DNA from: Dictyostelium discoideum
Lineage: Eukaryota
Length of the DNA: 64,000 nt
Direction of reading: 5' to 3'
Assembly (NCBI GenBank): GCA_000004695.1
Contig: CM000152.2
Coordinates: 4,608,001-4,672,000, forward strand
A program made the position numbers and the translations under genes. Positions 16,301-25,000 of the stretch are shown here, piece after piece. The notes under the pieces are model-generated. The model was not told where the DNA came from and made no database searches. It saw nothing but the letters and a program-made list of their open reading frames with translations. Every line of letters starts with the position of its first letter. The first letter of the stretch is position 1.

Positions 16301-18772
16301 GCTCGTGAGAATTTACAACAACTTTTAAGAAAATTAAAGAATGATGTTGAACGTGTTTCTTCAATCTCTTCAACCTCTCCTTCTGAACATCTTGAAAGTA
16401 AATCATATGCTGTCGCCAATGAATTGAATAAGGTTGAACGTGGTTTACATTCAAATAATCAAGCTGAAGTTAATGATGGTGCAAATAAAGCAATCGCTGG
16501 TATTAAACAACAAATTCAACTCTCTAAACATATCGCTGAACATACTGATAATATTGCTCAAAAGAGAGAAATCATCGATTTATCTGATCGTCTTGAAAAA
16601 CAAGCATTGGTTTTACAACAAGCTATCAAAGAATCATTGGCAAATCCATCATCTGCCGCTCATAAAGAAAAAGTTTATCAAGCTTCATGTGCTACTCGTA
16701 CTTTAATGGCTCAATTAATTGCTGCATCATCTTCAAAAGTACCAGAGGAACAAATTATTACCACTGCTCAATCAATTAAAAGAGATCTTGATAATTTATC
16801 CATTGCATTGGCAAAGGGTGGTAAAGATGCTGAAAAAGCAATTAAAGAATTTAAATCTGGCGAAACTAAACAAAAGATTGAATTATTGAAAGCCTATGCT
16901 TCAAAAGTTCAAAATCCACATCAAAAGAAACAAATCAATCAAGCAATTGCACAATTAGAGGAAAATGTTAAACAATCAATTGATTTCGTTGAGAAAACTA
17001 TTGGTACTACTACTGATAAGCCATCAACTGTTGAACAACAAAAGAAATTAAAAGAATTGATTGATAATAGTTCAGTTGCTGCTAATCAAGTGATTTCAGT
17101 TTCAACAGGTTCAAATGAAGATCGTTTACTTTCAAAAGCTGTTAAAATCAATGAAACCCTCGATAGAATTTCAAAATCTGCACATGGTGGTAATAAGGCT
17201 GATGTAGATTCAAATGTTAAAGAGTTGAGAGAAGAATTGGGTGATACCATTCAATTGATTAAACAAGCATCAGAGAATGTTAAAGATCCACATAAAAAAG
17301 TTGCCCTCAATGAAATTGCAGAAAAATTAAAATTAGTTTCACAACCAATTTCAAATGCTGCAAATAATACTATTTCAAAACCATCTGATAACGCTTCAAA
17401 GACTGAATTAAATAATCTCATCAATCAAACTAAAGAACTTTTGGGTAAAGCAGTTGTAAACTCTACAAACAATGATAATCCAACCCAACAATTGGATCAA
17501 GTACTTTATAAAGCAAGTAATGATATCAATCGTTTAAATAATGCAGTTGAAAGTGGTGATCAAAAATCAATTGGTGATTCATTAACTAATCTTAAAGACA
17601 CTGAAAATAGATTGAAAATACTTGGTAATTCATTACCATCCAATTCTGTAGAGAGTGAAAAAGTTAAGAAATCAATTCAAGAAATTAGTAATCAAGTTTT
17701 ACCAAGTATCATTAATAATGCAACCGTGATTTTAACTCAACCAAAAGATTCAAATAATTCTAAATCCATTGTTAATAAGGAATCAAAGAAAGCTTTATCA
17801 GATTTATCAAATGTTATCTCTATCACTAATAAATCACCAGAAGAGAAAATCATTGCAAATGGTACCGTTCTTCATCGTGATACTGATCAATTGAATACTT
17901 CCACTAAACAATCAAAAATTGATCCAACTCAAGTTCAAAATAATGTTGATACAATCTATAAAACTGTTGCTGAACAAACTTTATTAGCACGTGCTTTAGC
18001 TAATCAAACTTCAAATACATCAAGAAAACAATCTTTACAAGATAAATCTGATCAATTAGAGAAACTTTTACCAGAATTAGAAAAAGCCAATAAAGATATT
18101 CAATCATCCGCTTCAAGTGGTAAACCAGTTGATAAGCAAATGGTTGATAGACTTGATAAAATTACCAATGATATTAAATCAATCAATCAATCAATTGTTA
18201 GTGAAGCAATTAATGAAAAATTAGAGAAAGAACATAAAGAGAGAGAAATTCGTGAAGCCGCCTATAGAGAGGAACAAGAAAGATTAAGACGTGAAAAGGA
18301 AGAAAGAGAAAAAGCTCAACAAGATGAAGTTTTAGCTGCTGCTCAAAAAATCGCTGAAAGAACTAAAAATCTCAATAAAGATCAAACTCCAGAAGGTAAA
18401 CTTTATAGTACCGCTCAAGGTATCGCTGGTATCATGAGAGATCTTTCAATTGCTGCCACTACTAATGATAAGAAGGGTATGATCACTTGTTCGAAACTCT
18501 TGGCTGAACAAGTAGCTCTTTACCTTCAACAAGCTAAAGAAACCGCTTCTAAATGTACTGATCCAAAATTAAAAGAACAAATTATTACTGCTGCTCAAGC
18601 CGCTAAAAATTTCACTGTTCAACTTAAAATTATTGCTGCTGTTAAAGCCGCTAGCGATGATGATGATCCAAGTTCAAATAAACAACAATTGGTTAAATGT
18701 GCTAAAGGTTTAGCAAAAGCTATCGTTGGTACTATTAATGCTGTAGAAATTGGTCAAATTAGAGTAAAATAA
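13318..18772 (+). CDS. Vinculin/alpha-catenin-family protein, about 1784 aa. Exon 1 is 13318-14164, the intron is 14165-14264 (GTTAGT...TAG, phase 1) and exon 2 is 14265-18772.
   Basis: The N-terminus aligns to vinculin domain D1 (AIPNILPGAQGVKSTVDYLVDLASKS; RLIRYCRRCESKLKIF). The C-terminal about 150 aa aligns to the vinculin tail (ITCSKLLAEQVALYLQQAKETASKCTDPKLKEQIITAAQAAKNFTVQLKIIAAVKA versus vinculin [57 protein letters not shown]). The middle is a long helical-bundle region. The splice joins the two ORFs in frame. Confidence 0.85.
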
Positions 18773-19023
18773 AAAAATAAAAATTAAAATTAAAATAATA
18801 TATAAAAAAAAAAAAAAATGGATTATAAATAGAATTTCTGGATTTGGAAAATGTCCTAATTTTTTTTTTTTTTTTTTTTAACTAAAAGATATTAATTGGT
18901 TTAAAATAACTGATTGGTCACTAATTTTAAATATAAAAGTTGGTTGTATATAATTAAAAAAAAAAAAAAATTAAATTTTTAATTCAAAAAATCATGATAT
19001 TTTTCTTTTTTTTTTTTAATTAT

Positions 19024-19035
19024 GACTCCCATAAA
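19024..19035 (+). promoter_or_regulatory. DUSE-like box (CTCCCATAAA) about 60 nt upstream of the candidate ncRNA.
   Basis: It matches the Dictyostelium upstream sequence element consensus (A/T)CCCA(C/T)AA found about 60 nt upstream of D. discoideum ncRNA genes. Confidence 0.45.
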
Positions 19036-19092
19036 TTAATATTTTTATTAAAACAAATACAACAAAAATTTTTAAAACATTATTATTAATTT

Positions 19093-19333
19093 GAGGAGAG
19101 ATTAAAGGTGCAGGGCGGTCAGCTACTTCGTTCATTAATTTAATTAAAATTTGCCGTAACTTGAAATTACCGTAATCATTTGATAACTTCTGTGTATAAA
19201 ATTGGAGTTCATATGAGGAGAATCAGATTCTGATTGATCTTTCGTGAACAATCCAAAAACTGACCCCGCAAACACTTAATAATAACTCCTTTTGGCAATT
19301 TGAATTTTAATCTTTAAGACAAGTTTTTTTTTA
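19093..19333 (+). ncRNA. Candidate structured small RNA (about 240 nt, polymerase-III-like: DUSE upstream, T9 terminator). Identity unresolved: it has partial SRP-RNA Alu-domain-like features plus U6/U3-like boxes.
   Basis: This is a G+C-enriched island inside an AT desert, between two convergent genes. A 5' segment GGTGCAGGGCGGTCAGCTACTTCG can pair with the 3' segment CTGACCCCGCA to form a terminal helix. CAGCUACU and GACCCCG resemble 7SL helix 3/4 and the 3' end. The internal palindrome is AATCAGATTCTGATT. The locus ends at TTTTTTTTT (19325-19333). Confidence 0.4.
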
Positions 19334-19624
19334 CTTTTTTTATTTATTTTTTTTTTTAACATTTATTAACTAAACGGATAAAGTAAATAAGTAATTAATA
19401 GGTTTATTTATGAATCTTTAATTTTTTAAAATAAAATTTTTATTTTGGTTTAGACAGAATTTTGATTATAGAGTTGTTTTTTAAAAAAAAATAATAATAG
19501 TATAAATAAAATATAAATTTAAAAAATAAAAAATAAAAAATAAATCAAATAAAAAAACAACTAAATTAAAATTTTAATTTTAGTTTATTTTATTTTTTTA
19601 ATTTTTAAAAAGTTATTTTATTTA

Positions 19625-21268
19625 TTATTTATTTCCAACACTAACAAGAGTATTTGGTCTAGATATTGATAAATGTTCAATTGATTTATCAAAATCACCA
19701 ACATAAATTGGTTCCCATTGACCAAAATAATCAATTTGTTGTTGATTTGTTAAATTTTTAATCCAATTTTGATTATGATCATCTTTATTATTTTGATTAT
19801 ACCATAGATTTTGATTATCTAAAACCACTTTAAATAAATCATCAACAGCTATTTTATGATGAACCTTAACATTATCAGTTAATAAATGTAAACCAGGATT
19901 TGTATTTACCTCCAATAGCATTGGTTCCATTTGATCATTCAATAAAATATCGAAACCTAATAATTCAAAAGAACCTTTATTATGACCATTTCTTGGCCAA
20001 CTTTTAATGGTTGTAATCACTAATTTCTTAATTTTTTCATTTAATTCATTTTCCCATTGAACTTTGTTTTCACTATCAGCTGATAAATAATCTTTAAATT
20101 GTGACAATGACCATTGATTACTAACTTTTGACCATTTATTTTTATCTTTTGAAAAATCTTTTTGAACTTGATAATTACTAAGATGGACGAATCTATCATT
20201 TAAATCATCATTTGAATACTCTATTGAACAGAATCTAAGATAACATTCTCTAAATTTAAAAATTATTAACGGATTTAAACTCTTTACCAAAACAAATTGT
20301 CTAATATCAAACTTTGTATTTTCAATGGTATATGGTGATTCAATATATTTTTGTACAATAAATTCATCATTTCCTTGTGCTGAATATTCAAGTAATAAAT
20401 TTAAATCATCAAAAATTCTAATACCAACTCCTCTTGCATTTGCACTTGGTTTACAAATCCAAATATTTTTATTACCATCAATATGATTTTGAATTGGATA
20501 AATTATTAATTCTTCTTTATCATTTTCTAATATTATTTCTTTTTCATTGGTTGTTGTTGTTGTTGTTGTTGAAATTATATTTTCACCATAATGATTATTA
20601 AAATTTAATAATTCATCATTTGAAATTCCAACTAATTTTTCATTATTATTTTTAATTTTATTATTATTATTATTATTATTTTTTAATCTATTGAAATCCT
20701 TTATAAATGCTTTCTTTTCTAATGGGTTTGATAAAATATATGATCTTGGGAATATTTTAGAAATTTCATCTTTTAATTCTTTATCTCCATTTTGATATAA
20801 TTTATTCATATTTTTTGTTAAACCTGATTTTGATCCAATTTCATCATGATTTATAAAATGATTTACAATTTGATCTTTATTTCTTACTCCTAACATTTCC
20901 CAACACCAACTCCATTTAATATCAAATCCTCTTTTTTTAATTATTATTAATATTAATTTTTATTTTATCTTTATATATTATAATAATTAATATATTTACC
21001 TTGATATTGATTTACTTTCAGCATAACCTCTTTGAATTAAAGCCTCTCTAATTAATGTATGATTTGACGAAATTTGATCAATTTTAAATATCTTTTTTCT
21101 ATTCCTAATTGACTCTTTAATCTTTTCAAGATCAAAAGAATTTTGTGAATCCGGTTGTTTGGTGGTAGCAGTTAAAGTTTCAACCACATCTTCATTGATA
21201 TCAGTTGAACTATTAATAAAAGTACAAATAAATAATATAAAAACAATTAACACCACTAATTTCATCAT
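19625..21268 (-). CDS. Tubulin-tyrosine-ligase-like (TTL/TTLL) protein, about 524 aa. Exon 1 is 21000-21268, the intron is about 20931-20999 (GTAAAT...AG, phase 2) and exon 2 is 19625-20930.
   Basis: Exon 2 carries the TTL ATP-grasp core (IWICKPSANARGVGIRIF, FDIRQFVLV, SFELLGFDILLNDQMEPMLLEVNTNPGL). Exon 1 plus the start of exon 2 carries the TTL N-terminal motifs (TLIREALIQRGYAE ... DIKWSWCWEM ... QIVNHFINHDEIGSKSGLTKNM). The N-terminus MMKLVVLIVFILFICTF is strongly hydrophobic. Confidence 0.85.
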
Positions 21269-21487: not shown

Positions 21488-21965
21488 TTAATTAGTTTCA
21501 TCATCATTTGTATCGCTAAAATATTCTTCAGAAGATGAAGATTGTTCTTCAAATGGTTGATTATCGAAATCATCTTGATCATTTTCATAATCAGTAAAAG
21601 TTGATTCTGGTGATTGAGGTGGTTCAATACCAACATCACTCATTAATTGTACAACCTTTTCTATTGTTGAAACTAAAATTTGTTTTTGTTCAATTCTATA
21701 TTGTAATACCATTTTCATTTGTTCTGATGATTGAAGATCAATTTCACTATTTGATGAATTATCATTTTCATCATCACTATCATTAGTATTATTTTTATTA
21801 TTATCATTATCATTACCACTACAACTATCATTTCTTTGTTTCTTTTTCTTTTGTTCATTATTACTAGTATTATTAAAATCTTTATTACTATTATTTTCGG
21901 TATTATTATTATTATTATCTAATGATAAATTATCAATATCATTTTCATTGTTATTTTCACCACCT

Positions 21966-22026
<61 letters not shown>

Positions 22027-25000
22027 TACTATTACTATTACTACTACTATTATTATTCATTGAATCTAATAAATGTTGATCTTCAATAAAAGTTGAAGAG
22101 AAATTTTTTAAAAGTGATAAACCTAATTGATATAAAGTTTGTAATACTGTTGATTCATTTCTTAGATTAATTGGATTCCAAATATCAATGAATGGATTAA
22201 ATTCTTTTTGAGTTAAAAGGATTACACGTAAACATGCGAAATTCTTTGAAGGTATTCTATCTTTTCTAAGGAAATGAGAATCTGCAACTAAATTATTTTT
22301 TTCTAATAATCTATCTTTTGCATCTTTTAATTGTTTTTTCTCTCTTTTACTTAAAATTTCTTCACCATTTTCATCATATTGTTTAATTTCATCATATTCC
22401 TCTTCTTGTTCTTCTTTTTCTTTTTCTTCATCTTCTTCTTCTTGATCTTCTTCTAATTCATAACCAATATGAAGACTATCATAAATATTATTTGGTATAA
22501 TGAAACCATAATAAAGTGCTAATTCCCAATTTTGAAGTGCACCATAATGTAAAAATATTTGATTATTTGCAGGAATATTACATGAGGAGATCATTTTAAA
22601 AGATTGACTATCATGATCAAAGAATCTTTCAGAGATTTGAGCATTTGTATGATGATTAATCATATCAGCCATTGGTACTAAACAACTTTTAATTGAACCA
22701 TCAATTTTTAATTGAATAGCTCTACTATCCAATAAAGAACGTGCCCATAAGAAATTCTCCCAAGAGAATTGTGACTCTGGGAAAATATCAGGATATTGTT
22801 TTGATAACTCTGGGAATAAATAATCTCTAAATGAATTCAATTGTTGTTTAGTATGTAATGTCTCTTCAAACAAATTGGTACCTTCTAATTCCAACAACTC
22901 GGTTGCAGAGTAATGAATCGATGTTGTGAAATATGATGGCAATGTGTCATAGAATGGTCTCCAAAATGAGTTTGCATTCCCTTTTTCATAGATCACAAAT
23001 AGGAATAGTATAGTATCATCATTTAAATGAAGTTCTTCAAAGATTGGACCTAAAATTGGATGAGCTTTAGCCACATCAACATTGATTAAATATTTCTTTG
23101 GTACTACAACAACCGCTTCATTTTCATCGACTTTTTTCGTTGTAACAACACCTCTACCAGTTGAATCAGTGAAATTTGCAATTTGTAACTTTGGGAATTG
23201 AACACCACCTGCTTTCAGCCAATTTTCAAATCTTTTATAAACTTCATCTGAAGGTTTAATAAATGGTACTGATTTAATTGTTGGTTTTGAAAATTGATTC
23301 TTTAAATTTGATAATTGAATTAATGATCTTTCAATTATTGATAAATGAAATTTATAATATTTTTCAATTTCATTTAATAAATTATTATTAATTTTAAAAT
23401 TATTATTATTATTATTATTAATATTTAATGTATTTGAAATTTGATTTAATTTTTTAGTGATTTTAATTAAAATCATTGTAAATTCTTTTGATAAATAAAC
23501 CAAAGATTCCATTTCATTACGTAAATTAATCATTGTTGATAATTGATCATCTTCATAAAAATAACCTTCAGTTTCTCTTAATTTTGATAATCTTGTTAAT
23601 TCTAATAAATTAATACCTAAAATATTCTCTTGTGATAAATAATCTAAATAATAACCTTCTTTATTATTATTATTATTATTACTATTACTATTGTTATTAT
23701 TGTTATTGGTTTGTGATTTTTTAAAACTACTTGTACTATTATGAATTAATGTTGATGAATTTATTTCATTCTTTTGTTGTTGTTGTTGTTGTTGTTGTTG
23801 TTTTTGTAATTGTTGTTGTTGTTGTTTACCTAAATGATTATCTAAAATTGATTTTTTAACTTTCATTAATTTAATTTCTCTTTGTAATTCATCTTTATCA
23901 GTAAATAATTGTTCTAATTGATTAATTGGTTTAAATACTTGAATTTCAAATTTAATTGAACTCATTTCTTCTTCATCTAAAATTGTATAACCATAAAATA
24001 ATAATAACTCTTCATTACTATATAAATCGAATTGATAATCATCAATTAATGATTGAGAATCATCAAAACTATTACTACTTAAATATCTTAATAAACTATT
24101 TGAACTATTTTGTTTTGTTTTAGCTAAAACACTACTTTGTTGTTGTTGTTCAGTTTGTTGATTTTGTTTTATTCTTTTATTAAATTCAGAGATTGTAATG
24201 ATTTCAATATTTTCTAATTGAATTGGTGAATCTTTAAATAAAGCTGTATTTAAAACTGCAACTAATTCACTAAATGATTCATCATCATTCTCTAATGATG
24301 AAAGGAATAAATTTGAATGATTTCTAGGTGATGATAATAATGATGACGTTGTAGTGGTAGTAGTAGTAGTGGTGGTGGTGGTTGGTGAATCAGTTGATAT
24401 TGATATTGGTGATGTTTTATTATTTAATAAAGTTTTAATTTGTTTATAAATATTTGATTGAATTATATAATGTGGTAATGGTAAGAATGATTTAAAAGAA
24501 ATATTTGGTAATGTTACATTTACAATTGAAGCAACTCTAATATAATTATAAGATCTATATAAACATGATTCTAATTTATTATAGATTTTATCTGATTGTT
24601 CATTCTCTGATGTTTTAAATCCAATAAATGTAATAATCCATTTAAATACAACATCTAAATCTAATTTAATCTTATTAAATTCAAAATTTAAATCTAAATA
24701 ATTACATGTTGAACTATTATTATTATTATTATCATCATTATTATTATTATTTAAAACTATATTTTGAAATTCATTAAAATTTGTTATTGGAGTTGAAATG
24801 TTTATTAAATTTTGAATGATTTCAAAATAAGATAAAGTTGAAACTTTTGATGATGAAAAGTTTAAATTTGAAGATTTCTTTAAACTTGATCTTGTGGTAT
24901 TTGTTAATGATGGTTCAATGATTGAAGTTTGATAATATTCTGAAACCAAGAATAATAACATTACGAAATCATCAATTGATAATGATAGATTTGAGAATGT

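What the first reader, a model, noticed from the sequence alone, without database searches (positions are those of the whole stretch)
19020..19335. Unannotated structured small-RNA gene candidate between two convergent genes (DUSE-like box, terminal helix, T9 terminator)
This roughly 240-bp island of non-AT sequence is far too GC-rich and too palindromic to be dictyostelid intergenic filler, and it sits between two convergent genes. About 60 nt upstream is CTCCCATAAA, a good match to the DUSE element that precedes D. discoideum snRNA, SRP-RNA and Class I ncRNA genes. The 5' segment GCAGGGCGGTCAG can pair with the 3' segment CTGACCCCGC, a closing helix typical of SRP RNA helix 5 and other pol III RNAs. 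The locus ends in nine T. Internal motifs resemble the 7SL Alu domain (CAGCUACU, GACCCCG), U6 (AUAAAAUUGGA, UUCGUGAA) and U3 boxes B/C/D (GAGGAGAA, UGAUUGAUC, CUGA). None matches well enough for a secure call. It may be the SRP RNA of this species or an undescribed ncRNA.
Basis: partly seen in the sequence, partly recalled or inferred. Interest (0 to 1): 0.65.

Follow-up and report, generated by a model that had tools for sequence, protein, structure and literature searches.

The report
Conserved small RNA gene in Dictyostelium
The GC-richer island between two convergent Dictyostelium discoideum genes is very probably a real gene for a structured non-coding RNA of about 200 nt, conserved with its promoter in four sister lineages, matching no catalogued RNA family and of unknown function.

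Summary
A GC island of 33-36% (flanks 9-15%) lies 63-64 nt downstream of a perfect DUSE promoter box (TCCCATAA, 19027-19034).

Orthologous loci give the decisive evidence. The same DUSE, spacer and RNA body sit at the syntenic site in two D. cf. discoideum lineages, D. citrinum and D. dimigraforme. DUSE-to-RNA spacing is fixed at 63-64 nt, while flank lengths vary 254-425 and 163-1081 nt. Conservation stops at CUCC/CUCU followed by T4 to T19.

All orthologues fold alike: a long 5'/3' closing helix, a conserved small hairpin, and a second hairpin whose tip changes sequence but stays paired. Covariation is modest but positive.

The RNA is therefore about 19091-19293 (+).

No Rfam family matches, including SRP (with the Dictyostelium-specific model), U3, U6, MRP, P, vault, Y, 7SK and telomerase.

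Best reading: an independent DUSE-driven, probably Pol III, RNP-scaffold RNA restricted to the D. discoideum species complex. It was absent at the syntenic site in D. firmibasis, D. purpureum and H. album. A vault or TEP1 partner role is a speculative lead only.

The parts
19027..19034 (+). DUSE promoter box (TCCCATAA; ACCCATAA in the other four lineages)
   Evidence: Matches [AT]CCCA[CT]AA. The CCCATAAA core is invariant in all five lineages. It lies 63-64 nt upstream of the conserved RNA 5' end in all five. This fits the published position of about 60-63 nt (PMC3188802, PMC7919456).
19035..19090 (+). Promoter spacer between DUSE and the transcription start, including the conserved AAAACAAA..A.AA..AAAA.TTT
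   Evidence: 77-88% identical to the orthologues with no length change beyond 1 nt. The flanks change length by hundreds of nt.
19091..19293 (+). Predicted ncRNA, about 200 nt. The 5' end is inferred within +/-3 nt, probably G19093. The 3' end is CUCCUUUU.
   Evidence: Homology block with the orthologues L001 8166-8365, L056 4865-5067, L002 8259-8481 and L003 10711-10906. Identity is 90/90/73/76%, against 18-75% for the flanks. There is no + strand ORF of 20 aa or more within the RNA body; the one + strand ORF in the region (18994-19089, 31 aa) lies upstream over the DUSE and spacer. No Rfam match.
19093..19122 (+). 5' strand of the long closing helix (GAGGAG / AUUA / AGGUG / GG-GGUCAG segments)
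   Evidence: Pairs with 19260-19291 in the MFE fold of every orthologue and in the RNAalifold consensus. In helices 1-3, 95-100% of cells are paired, with one double (compensatory) change.
19123..19130 (+). Conserved unpaired motif YUACUUCG, directly 3' of the closing helix
   Evidence: UACUUCG is invariant in all five lineages and unpaired in all folds. Candidate protein- or RNA-binding site (inferred).
19156..19170 (+). Hairpin H1: GUAA/UUAC stem with a 7-nt loop (CUUGAAA)
   Evidence: The CGUAAnUUGnAAUUACC block is invariant apart from two positions. All four pairs are kept in 5/5 lineages but never vary (helix 4), so it is supported by conservation, not by covariation.
19190..19202 (+). 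Conserved linker CUGYGUAU(A)AAAU
   Evidence: Nearly invariant across lineages and unpaired in the consensus.
19202..19256 (+). Hairpin domain H2: conserved base (UUGGA-GUUC / GAAC-AA-UCCAA) and variable tip (19221-19235)
   Evidence: The base pair A-U (D. discoideum) becomes U-A (D. citrinum). The tip has a different sequence and length in each lineage, including a 20-nt insertion in D. citrinum and GGCC...GGCC in D. dimigraforme, yet is always a hairpin. Helices 7-8 carry 3 of the 4 pairs with double changes.
19260..19291 (+). 3' strand of the closing helix (CUGACCCC / CACUU / UAAU / CUCCUU)
   Evidence: CCGCAAnCACU is invariant.
19290..19293 (+). T4 run, the probable transcription terminator and source of the 3' oligo-U
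   Evidence: All five orthologues end CUCC/CUCU plus T4 (D. discoideum and both D. cf. discoideum), T10 (D. citrinum) or at least T19 (D. dimigraforme). BLAST homology stops at 19293. A tRNA-Leu gene in the same window is followed by the same CTTTTGG context.
19325..19333 (+).
   Evidence: It lies 32 nt beyond the end of interspecies conservation.

Best explanation
This is an independent gene on the + strand of D. discoideum (TTL-side neighbour DDB_G0281541) for a structured non-coding RNA of about 200 nt.

Shown:
- A DUSE box sits 63-64 nt upstream of a sequence block that is conserved, with its promoter, in five lineages of the D. discoideum species complex.
- That block folds in each lineage into the same architecture. 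A closing helix of about 25 bp, interrupted by internal loops, joins the 5' end (GAGGAG...) to the 3' end (...CUCC). It encloses an invariant single-stranded UACUUCG, an invariant small hairpin, an invariant linker, and a second hairpin whose tip is free to change sequence while staying paired.
- It belongs to no Rfam family.

Inferred:
- DUSE is used by Pol II and Pol III small-RNA genes in Dictyostelium. I interpret it as the counterpart of the metazoan snRNA-type proximal promoter element.
- Transcription starts at about G19093 and stops at the T-run that follows CUCC in every lineage. This points to RNA polymerase III and a 3'-UUUU-OH end that would bind La.
- The closing helix protects both ends. 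The invariant unpaired motifs are the docking sites for a protein or RNA partner.
- The RNA therefore acts as a stable RNP scaffold rather than as an antisense guide of the box C/D or H/ACA type.

Its cellular process is unknown. It is lineage-restricted or fast-moving, because it is absent from the syntenic site in D. firmibasis, D. purpureum and Heterostelium album.
For: Composition island.

DUSE at the published distance.

Phylogenetic footprint:
- Homology with D. citrinum and D. dimigraforme starts in AT-rich DNA about 90-100 nt upstream of DUSE and ends by 19293; the D. cf. discoideum and D. dimigraforme alignments end exactly there.
- RNA identity is 90/90/73/76%, against 73/75/60/43% upstream and 48/36/39/18% downstream.
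- Spacer length is fixed at 63-64 nt, while flank lengths vary 254-425 and 163-1081 nt.

Structure:
- Four orthologues folded independently give the same architecture.
- The RNAalifold energy beats column-shuffled alignments (z = -2.7; 3/300).
- 94% of cells are paired, against 45-50% when partners are slid.
- Four pairs show double changes; only 2/500 shuffles reach this.
- The hairpin tip differs in sequence and length in every lineage but stays paired.

Other points:
- There is no + strand ORF within the RNA body.
- All orthologues end in CUCC/CUCU plus T4-T19.
- T4 in the same context follows a tRNA gene in this window.
- The gene is single-copy in the 64-kb window and in the loci examined.
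- In a relative, the mRNA of the upstream vinculin/talin-like gene has a 3'UTR of about 145 nt before its poly(A). The island starts about 320 nt after the stop codon, so it is not part of that UTR.
Against: - There is no expression evidence of any kind. No tool here gives RNA-seq data, and the sequence was not found in searchable papers.
- There are only five orthologues, three of them close, and the pair counts were made on a model-fitted alignment.
- Single-sequence folding energy is not significant.
- SCI on the MAFFT alignment is low (0.33), and the reverse strand scores similarly. The strand call therefore rests on DUSE and the T-run.
- The Pol III inference is soft. T>=4 runs are common in flanking DNA (20 in 586 nt). 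Absence of internal TTTT in four orthologues is not significant (23-35% of shuffles also lack it). The D. citrinum orthologue carries three internal T4-T5 runs.
- The gene is absent at the syntenic site in D. firmibasis (only 181 bp of intergenic DNA), so it is not deeply conserved.
Confidence: 0.72

Rival explanations
1. It is the vault RNA (or a Y/vault-class RNA) of Dictyostelium. That would make it a Pol III RNA whose 5'/3' panhandle and oligo-U tail bind La, and whose central part binds the TROVE protein TEP1 inside or outside vault particles.
For: - D. discoideum has abundant vaults and a vault-associated TEP1 orthologue (Q54CB5). None of the papers I could read reports a vault RNA sequence for it.
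- The architecture is the same in outline: terminal helix directly followed by UUUU, a conserved 5' motif and a variable centre (the vtRNA structures are in PMC10087102).
- The invariant motif GUCAG(C/U)UACUUCG resembles the most conserved vtRNA stretch CUCAGCGGUUACUUCG. D. dimigraforme shares an exact 10-mer, GUUACUUCGA, and D. citrinum the 9-mer GUUACUUCG, with human vtRNAs.
Against: - The Rfam Vault model gives no match at E<=10 in 211 nt.
- An HMM of the three human vtRNAs gives no hit even at E<=100.
- Local alignment scores are only weakly above shuffles (7 to 117 of 300 shuffles reach the observed score), and the motif was picked after the fact.
- There is no tRNA-like box A or box B conserved across the orthologues.
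- At about 200 nt it is longer than the 80-140 nt quoted for vtRNAs.
- It is single-copy and absent at the syntenic site in D. firmibasis, although vaults are ancient.
Confidence: 0.1
2. It is a Pol II-transcribed, DUSE-driven snRNA- or snoRNA-like nuclear RNA. In that case the T-run is incidental and the 3' end is made by processing.
For: - DUSE precedes both Pol II and Pol III small-RNA genes in Dictyostelium (PMC7919456).
- The D. citrinum orthologue has internal T4, T5 and T4 runs that should impair Pol III.
- T-runs are ubiquitous in the flanks.
Against: - There is no Sm site: the only U-run followed by GG (CUUUUGG, 19289-19295) is not conserved.
- There is no box C/D or H/ACA motif conserved across the orthologues.
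- No snRNA or snoRNA family matches. The snoR77Y and SNORD58 hits (E = 3.9-9.2, 12-15 bits against gathering scores of 42-52) are chance level and fall on non-conserved sequence.
- Conservation ends exactly at a T-run in all five lineages.
Confidence: 0.12
3. It is the SRP (7SL) RNA of this species.
For: - A long rod-like helix joins the 5' and 3' parts, with two hairpins at the far end. This is loosely reminiscent of helix 5 plus helices 6 and 8.
- It contains a CAGCUACU string.
Against: - No SRP-clan model matches at E<=10.
- The apical loops of the larger hairpin are AUU, AAUA and UCAAG, with a larger irregular tip in D. dimigraforme. There is no conserved GNAR tetraloop.
- There are no Alu-domain hairpins at the 5' end.
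- At about 200 nt it is short for a eukaryotic SRP RNA.
- An essential SRP RNA would not be missing from the site in D. firmibasis without trace, nor diverge by 25% within a species complex.
Confidence: 0.02
4. It is the missing telomerase RNA of Dictyostelium. That would make it a ciliate- or plant-style Pol III transcript with a core-enclosing helix, with the closing helix acting as the template boundary.
For: - TERT and TEP1 exist in D. discoideum, and the RNA subunit is unknown (PMC6592521).
- Shared outline features are upstream-promoter Pol III style, a closing helix followed by a conserved single-stranded stretch, and a distal hairpin.
Against: - No conserved single-stranded segment is complementary to the reported A-G(1-8) repeat.
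- The only C-rich run (CCCC, 19264-19267) is paired and not conserved (CUGAUGCC in D. cf. discoideum).
- UACUUCG has no permuted repeat.
- No pseudoknot was found.
- No telomerase family matches.
Confidence: 0.02
5. It is not an RNA gene. It would then be conserved regulatory DNA, part of a neighbouring gene's UTR, or a precursor hairpin for small RNAs.
For: - No expression data are available.
- The reverse strand folds about as well as the forward strand.
- The long imperfect helix could in principle be diced.
Against: - A DUSE at fixed spacing, conserved together with the block, is a promoter signature.
- Paired positions co-vary, and the hairpin tip changes sequence but not pairing. DNA elements do not behave this way.
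- The upstream gene's 3'UTR in a relative is only about 145 nt.
- Indels are not in multiples of three, and there is no + strand ORF within the RNA body.
Confidence: 0.04

Closest known systems
DUSE-dependent small ncRNA genes of Dictyostelium (U6, SRP RNA, spliceosomal snRNAs, Class I/II RNAs)
   Same: A perfect DUSE box about 63 nt upstream of the RNA. The gene is an independent small transcription unit in an intergenic region. It has a T-run at the 3' end, as noted for many Class I genes. The 5' and 3' ends pair with each other.
   Different: It is about 200 nt, not 42-65 nt. It lacks the Class I 11-nt motif (CTTACAGC is absent from the window). It is single-copy rather than a multigene family. 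It matches none of the Rfam models that cover the Dictyostelium snRNAs, SRP RNA and DdR snoRNAs.
Vault RNAs and Y RNAs (Pol III panhandle RNAs bound by La and TROVE proteins)
   Same: A terminal 5'/3' helix is followed directly by an oligo-U tail. There is a conserved motif just inside the 5' strand, and the central part evolves fast. It also shares a short motif, (G)UUACUUCG(A), with vertebrate vtRNAs.
   Different: There is no covariance-model or HMM similarity. It has no conserved internal box A or B, is about twice the usual length, and uses an upstream DUSE promoter. Association with TEP1 or vaults is untested.
Eukaryotic SRP RNA
   Same: A rod-like helix with two distal hairpins, and a DUSE promoter as recalled for the Dictyostelium SRP RNA gene.
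   Different: There is no SRP-clan match, no conserved helix-8 tetraloop or loop motifs, and no Alu domain. It is shorter and poorly conserved outside one species complex.

Membership tests
DUSE-driven ncRNA gene of Dictyostelium (a promoter class, not an RNA family) | [AT]CCCA[CT]AA about 60-63 nt upstream of the RNA 5' end | tested here: met
   TCCCATAA is at 19027-19034. The conserved RNA block starts 64 nt downstream of its first base, and the spacing is 63-64 nt in all five lineages. The definition comes from PMC3188802 and PMC7919456.
DUSE-driven ncRNA gene of Dictyostelium (a promoter class, not an RNA family) | Promoter and RNA conserved together in related dictyostelids | tested here: met
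   Present in D. discoideum, two D. cf. discoideum lineages, D. citrinum and D. dimigraforme. Absent at the syntenic site in D. firmibasis, D. purpureum and H. album.
DUSE-driven ncRNA gene of Dictyostelium (a promoter class, not an RNA family) | A discrete expressed small RNA | not testable with these tools
   No RNA-seq or northern data are accessible. The sequence was not found in searchable papers.
SRP RNA (Rfam SRP clan) | Match to an SRP covariance model | tested here: not met
   There is no SRP-clan hit at the gathering threshold, nor at E<=10 in 451, 211 or 208 nt.
SRP RNA (Rfam SRP clan) | Conserved helix-8 GNAR tetraloop with flanking conserved internal loops | tested here: not met
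   The apical loops of the large hairpin differ in every lineage (AUU, AAUA, UCAAG, and a larger irregular tip in D. dimigraforme).
U3 snoRNA | Boxes A'/A at the 5' end and boxes B, C, C' and D; match to a U3 model | tested here: not met
There is no U3 model hit.
U6 / U6atac snRNA | ACAGAGA and AGC boxes, 3' internal stem-loop; match to a U6 or U6atac model | tested here: not met
   There are no hits. UUCGUGAA is not conserved (CCACGAAC and UUUCGAAC in other lineages).
Vault RNA | Match to Rfam Vault, or sequence similarity to known vtRNAs | tested here: not met
   There is no Vault hit. nhmmer with a human vtRNA profile gives nothing at E<=100. Only a 9-10-nt shared motif remains, with marginal alignment statistics.
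Vault RNA | Terminal 5'/3' stem followed by an oligo-U tail, with a variable centre | tested here: met
   This feature is generic to many Pol III RNAs.
Vault RNA | Internal tRNA-like box A and box B | tested here: not met
   No conserved TRGCNNAGTGG or GGTTCGANNCC is present. The UUCG..AAC..CC region varies in spacing between lineages.
Vault RNA | Association with TEP1 or vault particles | not testable with these tools
   This needs RIP or vault purification. A TEP1 orthologue, Q54CB5, exists.
Class I RNA of Dictyostelia | 42-65 nt, short terminal stem, 11-nt motif CCUUACAGCAA | tested here: not met
   CTTACAGC is absent from the window. The RNA is about 200 nt.
Telomerase RNA | Conserved single-stranded template complementary to the telomeric repeat (A-G1-8 in D. 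discoideum) | tested here: not met
   There is no conserved C-rich unpaired segment, and no telomerase family hit.

The most novel reading that the evidence does not exclude
This RNA is the long-missing RNA partner of a classical Dictyostelium RNP. The most plausible candidate is the vault/TEP1 (TROVE) RNA of an organism in which vaults have been studied since 1990 without, in the papers I could read, a reported vault RNA sequence. Its sequence would have diverged beyond recognition apart from a (G)UUACUUCG motif shared with vertebrate vault RNAs.
Probability: 0.1. Interest if true: 0.7.

Novelty: new member of a known kind. Interest (0 to 1): 0.45.

Why it matters
Dictyostelium is a major model organism, yet its catalogue of mid-size non-coding RNAs rests largely on one 2004 cDNA survey and on Rfam-based annotation. 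This locus shows that a DUSE box, a GC island and synteny together can reveal structured RNAs that every covariance model misses.

The RNA has a clean promoter, defined ends and a testable fold. It sits in a genetically tractable organism where a knockout, a northern blot and RIP against La, TEP1 or MVP are each about a week's work.

If it proves to be the TEP1/vault partner, or another missing RNP RNA, it would open a genetic route to a long-unresolved question. If not, it is still a young, fast-evolving structured RNA confined to one species complex. That is useful for studying how such genes arise.

Tried and rejected
1. Rfam. I ran the gathering threshold on the whole window and E<=10 on 451, 211 and 208 nt of two orthologues. 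Only chance-level hits appeared (STnc410, CRISPR-DR51, snoR77Y, SNORD58, MIR1031).
2. Exact-protein look-up of the spurious 43-aa minus-strand ORF, hoping to fish out assembled RNA-seq contigs. Nothing was on record.
3. Two metagenome pattern scans with conserved motifs. The first gave 0 hits. The second gave 49 hits that matched only the pattern itself under nhmmer, with no homologue.
4. nhmmer and covariance model R1 on the syntenic loci of D. firmibasis, D. purpureum and H. album. Nothing was found.
5. An attempt to reach the 3' flank of the vinculin/talin-like gene in more distant dictyostelids.
   - The first protein search was swamped by low-complexity words.
   - The second returned only short metagenome or metatranscriptome contigs with 100-160 nt of 3' flank, one of them ending in poly(A).
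   - The AX4 protein itself was not on record.
6. Literature.
   - No paper held mentions the sequence, its antisense probes or the neighbouring gene id.
   - Aspegren 2004, Hinas 2006 and Kolev 2019 are not held.
   - The dictyBase GFF in a supplement is truncated to the start of chromosome 1.
7. Vault RNA homology by local alignment against shuffles and by a profile HMM. The results were marginal and nil respectively.
8. Considered and rejected by inspection:
   - RNase MRP/P: no CR-I/CR-V or P4 elements.
   - 7SK: no conserved GAUC pairs.
   - K-turn: no tandem G-A pairs.
   - H/ACA: the ACA is not conserved.
   - Box C/D: no C box, and CUGA becomes CUGU in D. dimigraforme.
   - Sm site: not conserved.
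9. Avoidance of internal T4 runs as a Pol III signature was not significant.
Full report
**What is there**

The window is Dictyostelium discoideum. A second D. discoideum assembly differs from it by one 2-nt homopolymer indel across the whole 852-bp intergenic region. The downstream TTL-family gene belongs to the DDB_G0281541 cluster.

The finding lies between a vinculin/talin-like ORF ending at 18772 (+) and the TTL gene ending at 19625 (-).

- CTCCCATAAA at 19025-19034
- GCAGGGCGGTCAG at 19110-19122
- CTGACCCCGC at 19260-19269
- T9 at 19325-19333

GC is 0.33-0.36 over 19100-19300, against 0.09-0.15 in the flanks.

**The single-sequence features are weak on their own**

- The DUSE 8-mer occurs 5 times in the window, with 8.5 expected by chance.
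- The fold of 19091-19333 is ordinary for its composition: z = -0.98 on the + strand and -1.38 on the - strand.
- T>=4 runs occur 20 times in 586 nt of flanking DNA.
- No Rfam family reaches its gathering score in the region.
- At E<=10 only chance-level hits to unrelated families appear.

On this evidence alone the case would be open.

**Orthologous loci settle that it is a gene**

I used TTL orthologues as anchors and fetched the syntenic loci of these species:
- two D. cf. discoideum lineages
- D. citrinum
- D. dimigraforme
- D. firmibasis
- D. purpureum
- Heterostelium album

The first four carry a homologue in the same place and orientation.

In the BLAST with the island query, homology begins at the DUSE box. 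With the whole intergenic query it starts in AT-rich DNA about 90-100 nt further upstream. It ends by 19293, and the D. cf. discoideum and D. dimigraforme alignments end exactly there.

| Measure | Values across the four other lineages |
|---|---|
| DUSE-to-RNA spacing | 63-64 nt in all five lineages |
| Upstream flank length | 254-425 nt |
| Downstream flank length | 163-1081 nt |
| RNA identity to D. discoideum | 90, 90, 73, 76% |
| Upstream flank identity | 73, 75, 60, 43% |
| Downstream flank identity | 48, 36, 39, 18% |

Further points:
- Every orthologue ends CUCC or CUCU followed by a T-run: T4 three times, then T10 and at least T19.
- The conserved RNA is therefore about 19091-19293.
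- There is no + strand ORF within the RNA body, and the indels are not multiples of three.
- Of the two other DUSE matches read in full (4019 and 56534), neither is followed by an island.
- The upstream gene's mRNA in a relative has a 3'UTR of only about 145 nt. The island is therefore not UTR.

**Structure**

Four orthologues were folded independently, and the fifth was aligned to the model. All adopt one architecture:
- A long closing helix pairs 19093-19122 with 19260-19291. Its segments are GAGGAG/CUCCUU, AUUA/UAAU, AGGUG/CACUU and GG-GGUCAG/CUGACC-CC.
- Next comes an invariant unpaired UACUUCG (19124-19130).
- An AU-rich variable stretch follows.
- There is an invariant small hairpin, CGUAAnUUGnAAUUACC (stem 19156-19159 with 19167-19170).
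- An invariant linker, CUGYGUAUAAAAU, follows.
- A second hairpin domain spans 19202-19256.

In that second domain the base is conserved and co-varies (UUGGA/UCCAA in D. discoideum, UUGGU/ACCAA in D. citrinum). The tip is a different sequence in every lineage yet always forms a hairpin:
- AAUCAG/CUGAUU in D. discoideum
- AAUCU/AGAUU in the second D. cf. discoideum
- a 20-nt larger hairpin in D. citrinum
- GGCC...GGCC in D. dimigraforme

Quantitative tests:
- The RNAalifold energy exceeds column-shuffled alignments (z = -2.7; 3/300).
- On the model-based alignment, 94% of cells are paired, against 45-50% with slid partners.
- Four pairs carry double changes; 2/500 shuffles reach this.

Caveats: there are five sequences, three of them close. 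The alignment is fitted to the model. SCI is low on the MAFFT alignment. The reverse strand scores similarly, so the strand call rests on the DUSE box and the T-run.

**How it probably works**

Published work places DUSE about 60-63 nt upstream of both Pol II and Pol III small-RNA genes in dictyostelids. It also shows that DUSE is needed for Class I RNA expression (PMC3188802, PMC7919456).

The T-run directly after the last conserved base in all lineages points to Pol III and a La-binding 3' oligo-U. So does the identical CTTTTGG context after a tRNA-Leu gene in this window.

This step is inferred and soft. Internal T4 avoidance is not significant, and D. citrinum has three internal T4-T5 runs. 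I put Pol III at roughly 60-65%.

The closing helix would protect both ends. The invariant unpaired motifs are the likely docking sites. The freely evolving hairpin tip behaves like a spacer. That is the anatomy of an RNP scaffold, not of a box C/D or H/ACA guide. The process it serves is unknown.

**Comparison with known families**

- **SRP RNA.** It fails the covariance-model test and lacks a conserved helix-8 loop and an Alu domain.
- **U3 and U6.** Several of the quoted motifs fall in variable sequence. The conserved ones bring no model match.
- **Class I RNA.** The Class I motif is absent.
- **Telomerase RNA.** This RNA is unidentified in D. discoideum. It is unlikely here, because no conserved unpaired C-rich template for A-G(1-8) exists.
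- **Vault RNA.** This is the most interesting lead.
  - For: D. discoideum has vaults and a vault-associated TEP1 orthologue, but the papers I could read report no vault RNA sequence. The outline matches (panhandle plus U-tail, conserved 5' motif, variable centre). The invariant GUCAG(C/U)UACUUCG echoes the vtRNA core CUCAGCGGUUACUUCG, whose sequences I took from PMC10087102.
  - Against: alignment statistics are marginal. A vtRNA profile finds nothing. Rfam Vault finds nothing. No box A or B is conserved. The RNA is about twice the usual size.
  - I keep it as a 10% possibility.

**Distribution and novelty**

The gene was not found at the syntenic site in D. firmibasis (where the convergent genes are only 181 bp apart), D. 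purpureum or H. album. I could not scan whole eukaryotic genomes, so 'moved' and 'absent' cannot be separated.

It is a new RNA family with respect to Rfam 15, but an ordinary kind of thing: a DUSE-driven small structured RNA. I could not check dictyBase, so prior annotation cannot be excluded.

**Verdict**

This is a real, conserved and probably expressed ncRNA gene of unknown function. Interest is moderate.

Noticed in passing
window 5433-5515 (-) and 52155-52226 (-), with about 45-65 nt downstream of each: Two tRNA genes are present, Leu-UAA and Met-CAU. Each is followed by a second B-box-like GGTTCGAAT/GGTTCGATT element: about 24 nt beyond the 3' end for tRNA-Leu (5401-5409) and about 30 nt for tRNA-Met (52116-52124). 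From my own recollection, this is the 'external B box' described for Dictyostelium tRNA genes. tRNA-Leu terminates in only T4 (CTTTTGG), and tRNA-Met in T6.
   Followed up: partly
L003 10640-10710 (-), D. dimigraforme, just 3' of the RNA's T-run: After the T-run comes CCTCGAAGTTCTGGTCATAGGTAAAAAAAAATGCTCCTTTTTTT. This is a second copy of the RNA's last bases (UGCUCC plus a T-run), picked up weakly by the model (8.5 bits). It is preceded by TGGTCATAGGT, the same string that precedes the external B box downstream of the tRNA-Leu gene in the window. It may be a small duplication or the remnant of a Pol III-associated element. It is unexplained.
   Followed up: no
L004 7661-7841 (D. firmibasis); L003 7873-9629 (D. 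dimigraforme); L005 (D. purpureum): The intergenic region is highly plastic. It is 181 bp with no RNA gene in D. firmibasis. In D. dimigraforme a Ras-family gene sits between the RNA gene and TTL. In D. purpureum the vinculin/talin-like gene is inverted relative to TTL and another gene lies between them.
   Followed up: partly
L002 8259-8481 (-), D. citrinum orthologue: This is the only orthologue with internal T4, T5 and T4 runs (RNA positions 55, 83 and 96) and a 20-nt expansion of the variable hairpin. If the gene is Pol III-transcribed, either termination at short T-runs is leaky in this species or the copy is partly impaired.
   Followed up: partly
window 18907-18927: TAACTGATTGGTCACTAATTT is a non-AT-only patch about 100 nt upstream of DUSE. 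It is conserved with D. cf. discoideum (TAACTGATCAGTTATTAATTT) but not recognisably with D. citrinum or D. dimigraforme. It could be a distal promoter element or the poly(A) region of the upstream gene.
   Followed up: no
L060 (JGI metatranscriptome contig Ga0257206_1022169) and L058/L059: Environmental contigs encode the C-terminal vinculin/talin-like domain at 62% and 85% identity to the window protein. One ends in poly(A) about 145 nt after the stop codon. These are dictyostelid-like transcripts in soil or environmental data.
   Followed up: partly
window 21488-25507 (-) and 21922-22089: There is a long ORF of 1339 aa rich in homopolymeric Asn, Gln and Thr tracts, and a (TAT/TTA)n-type repeat that gives poly-Tyr and poly-Leu ORFs on the opposite strand. 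These are typical D. discoideum low-complexity coding sequence and are unrelated to the finding.
   Followed up: no
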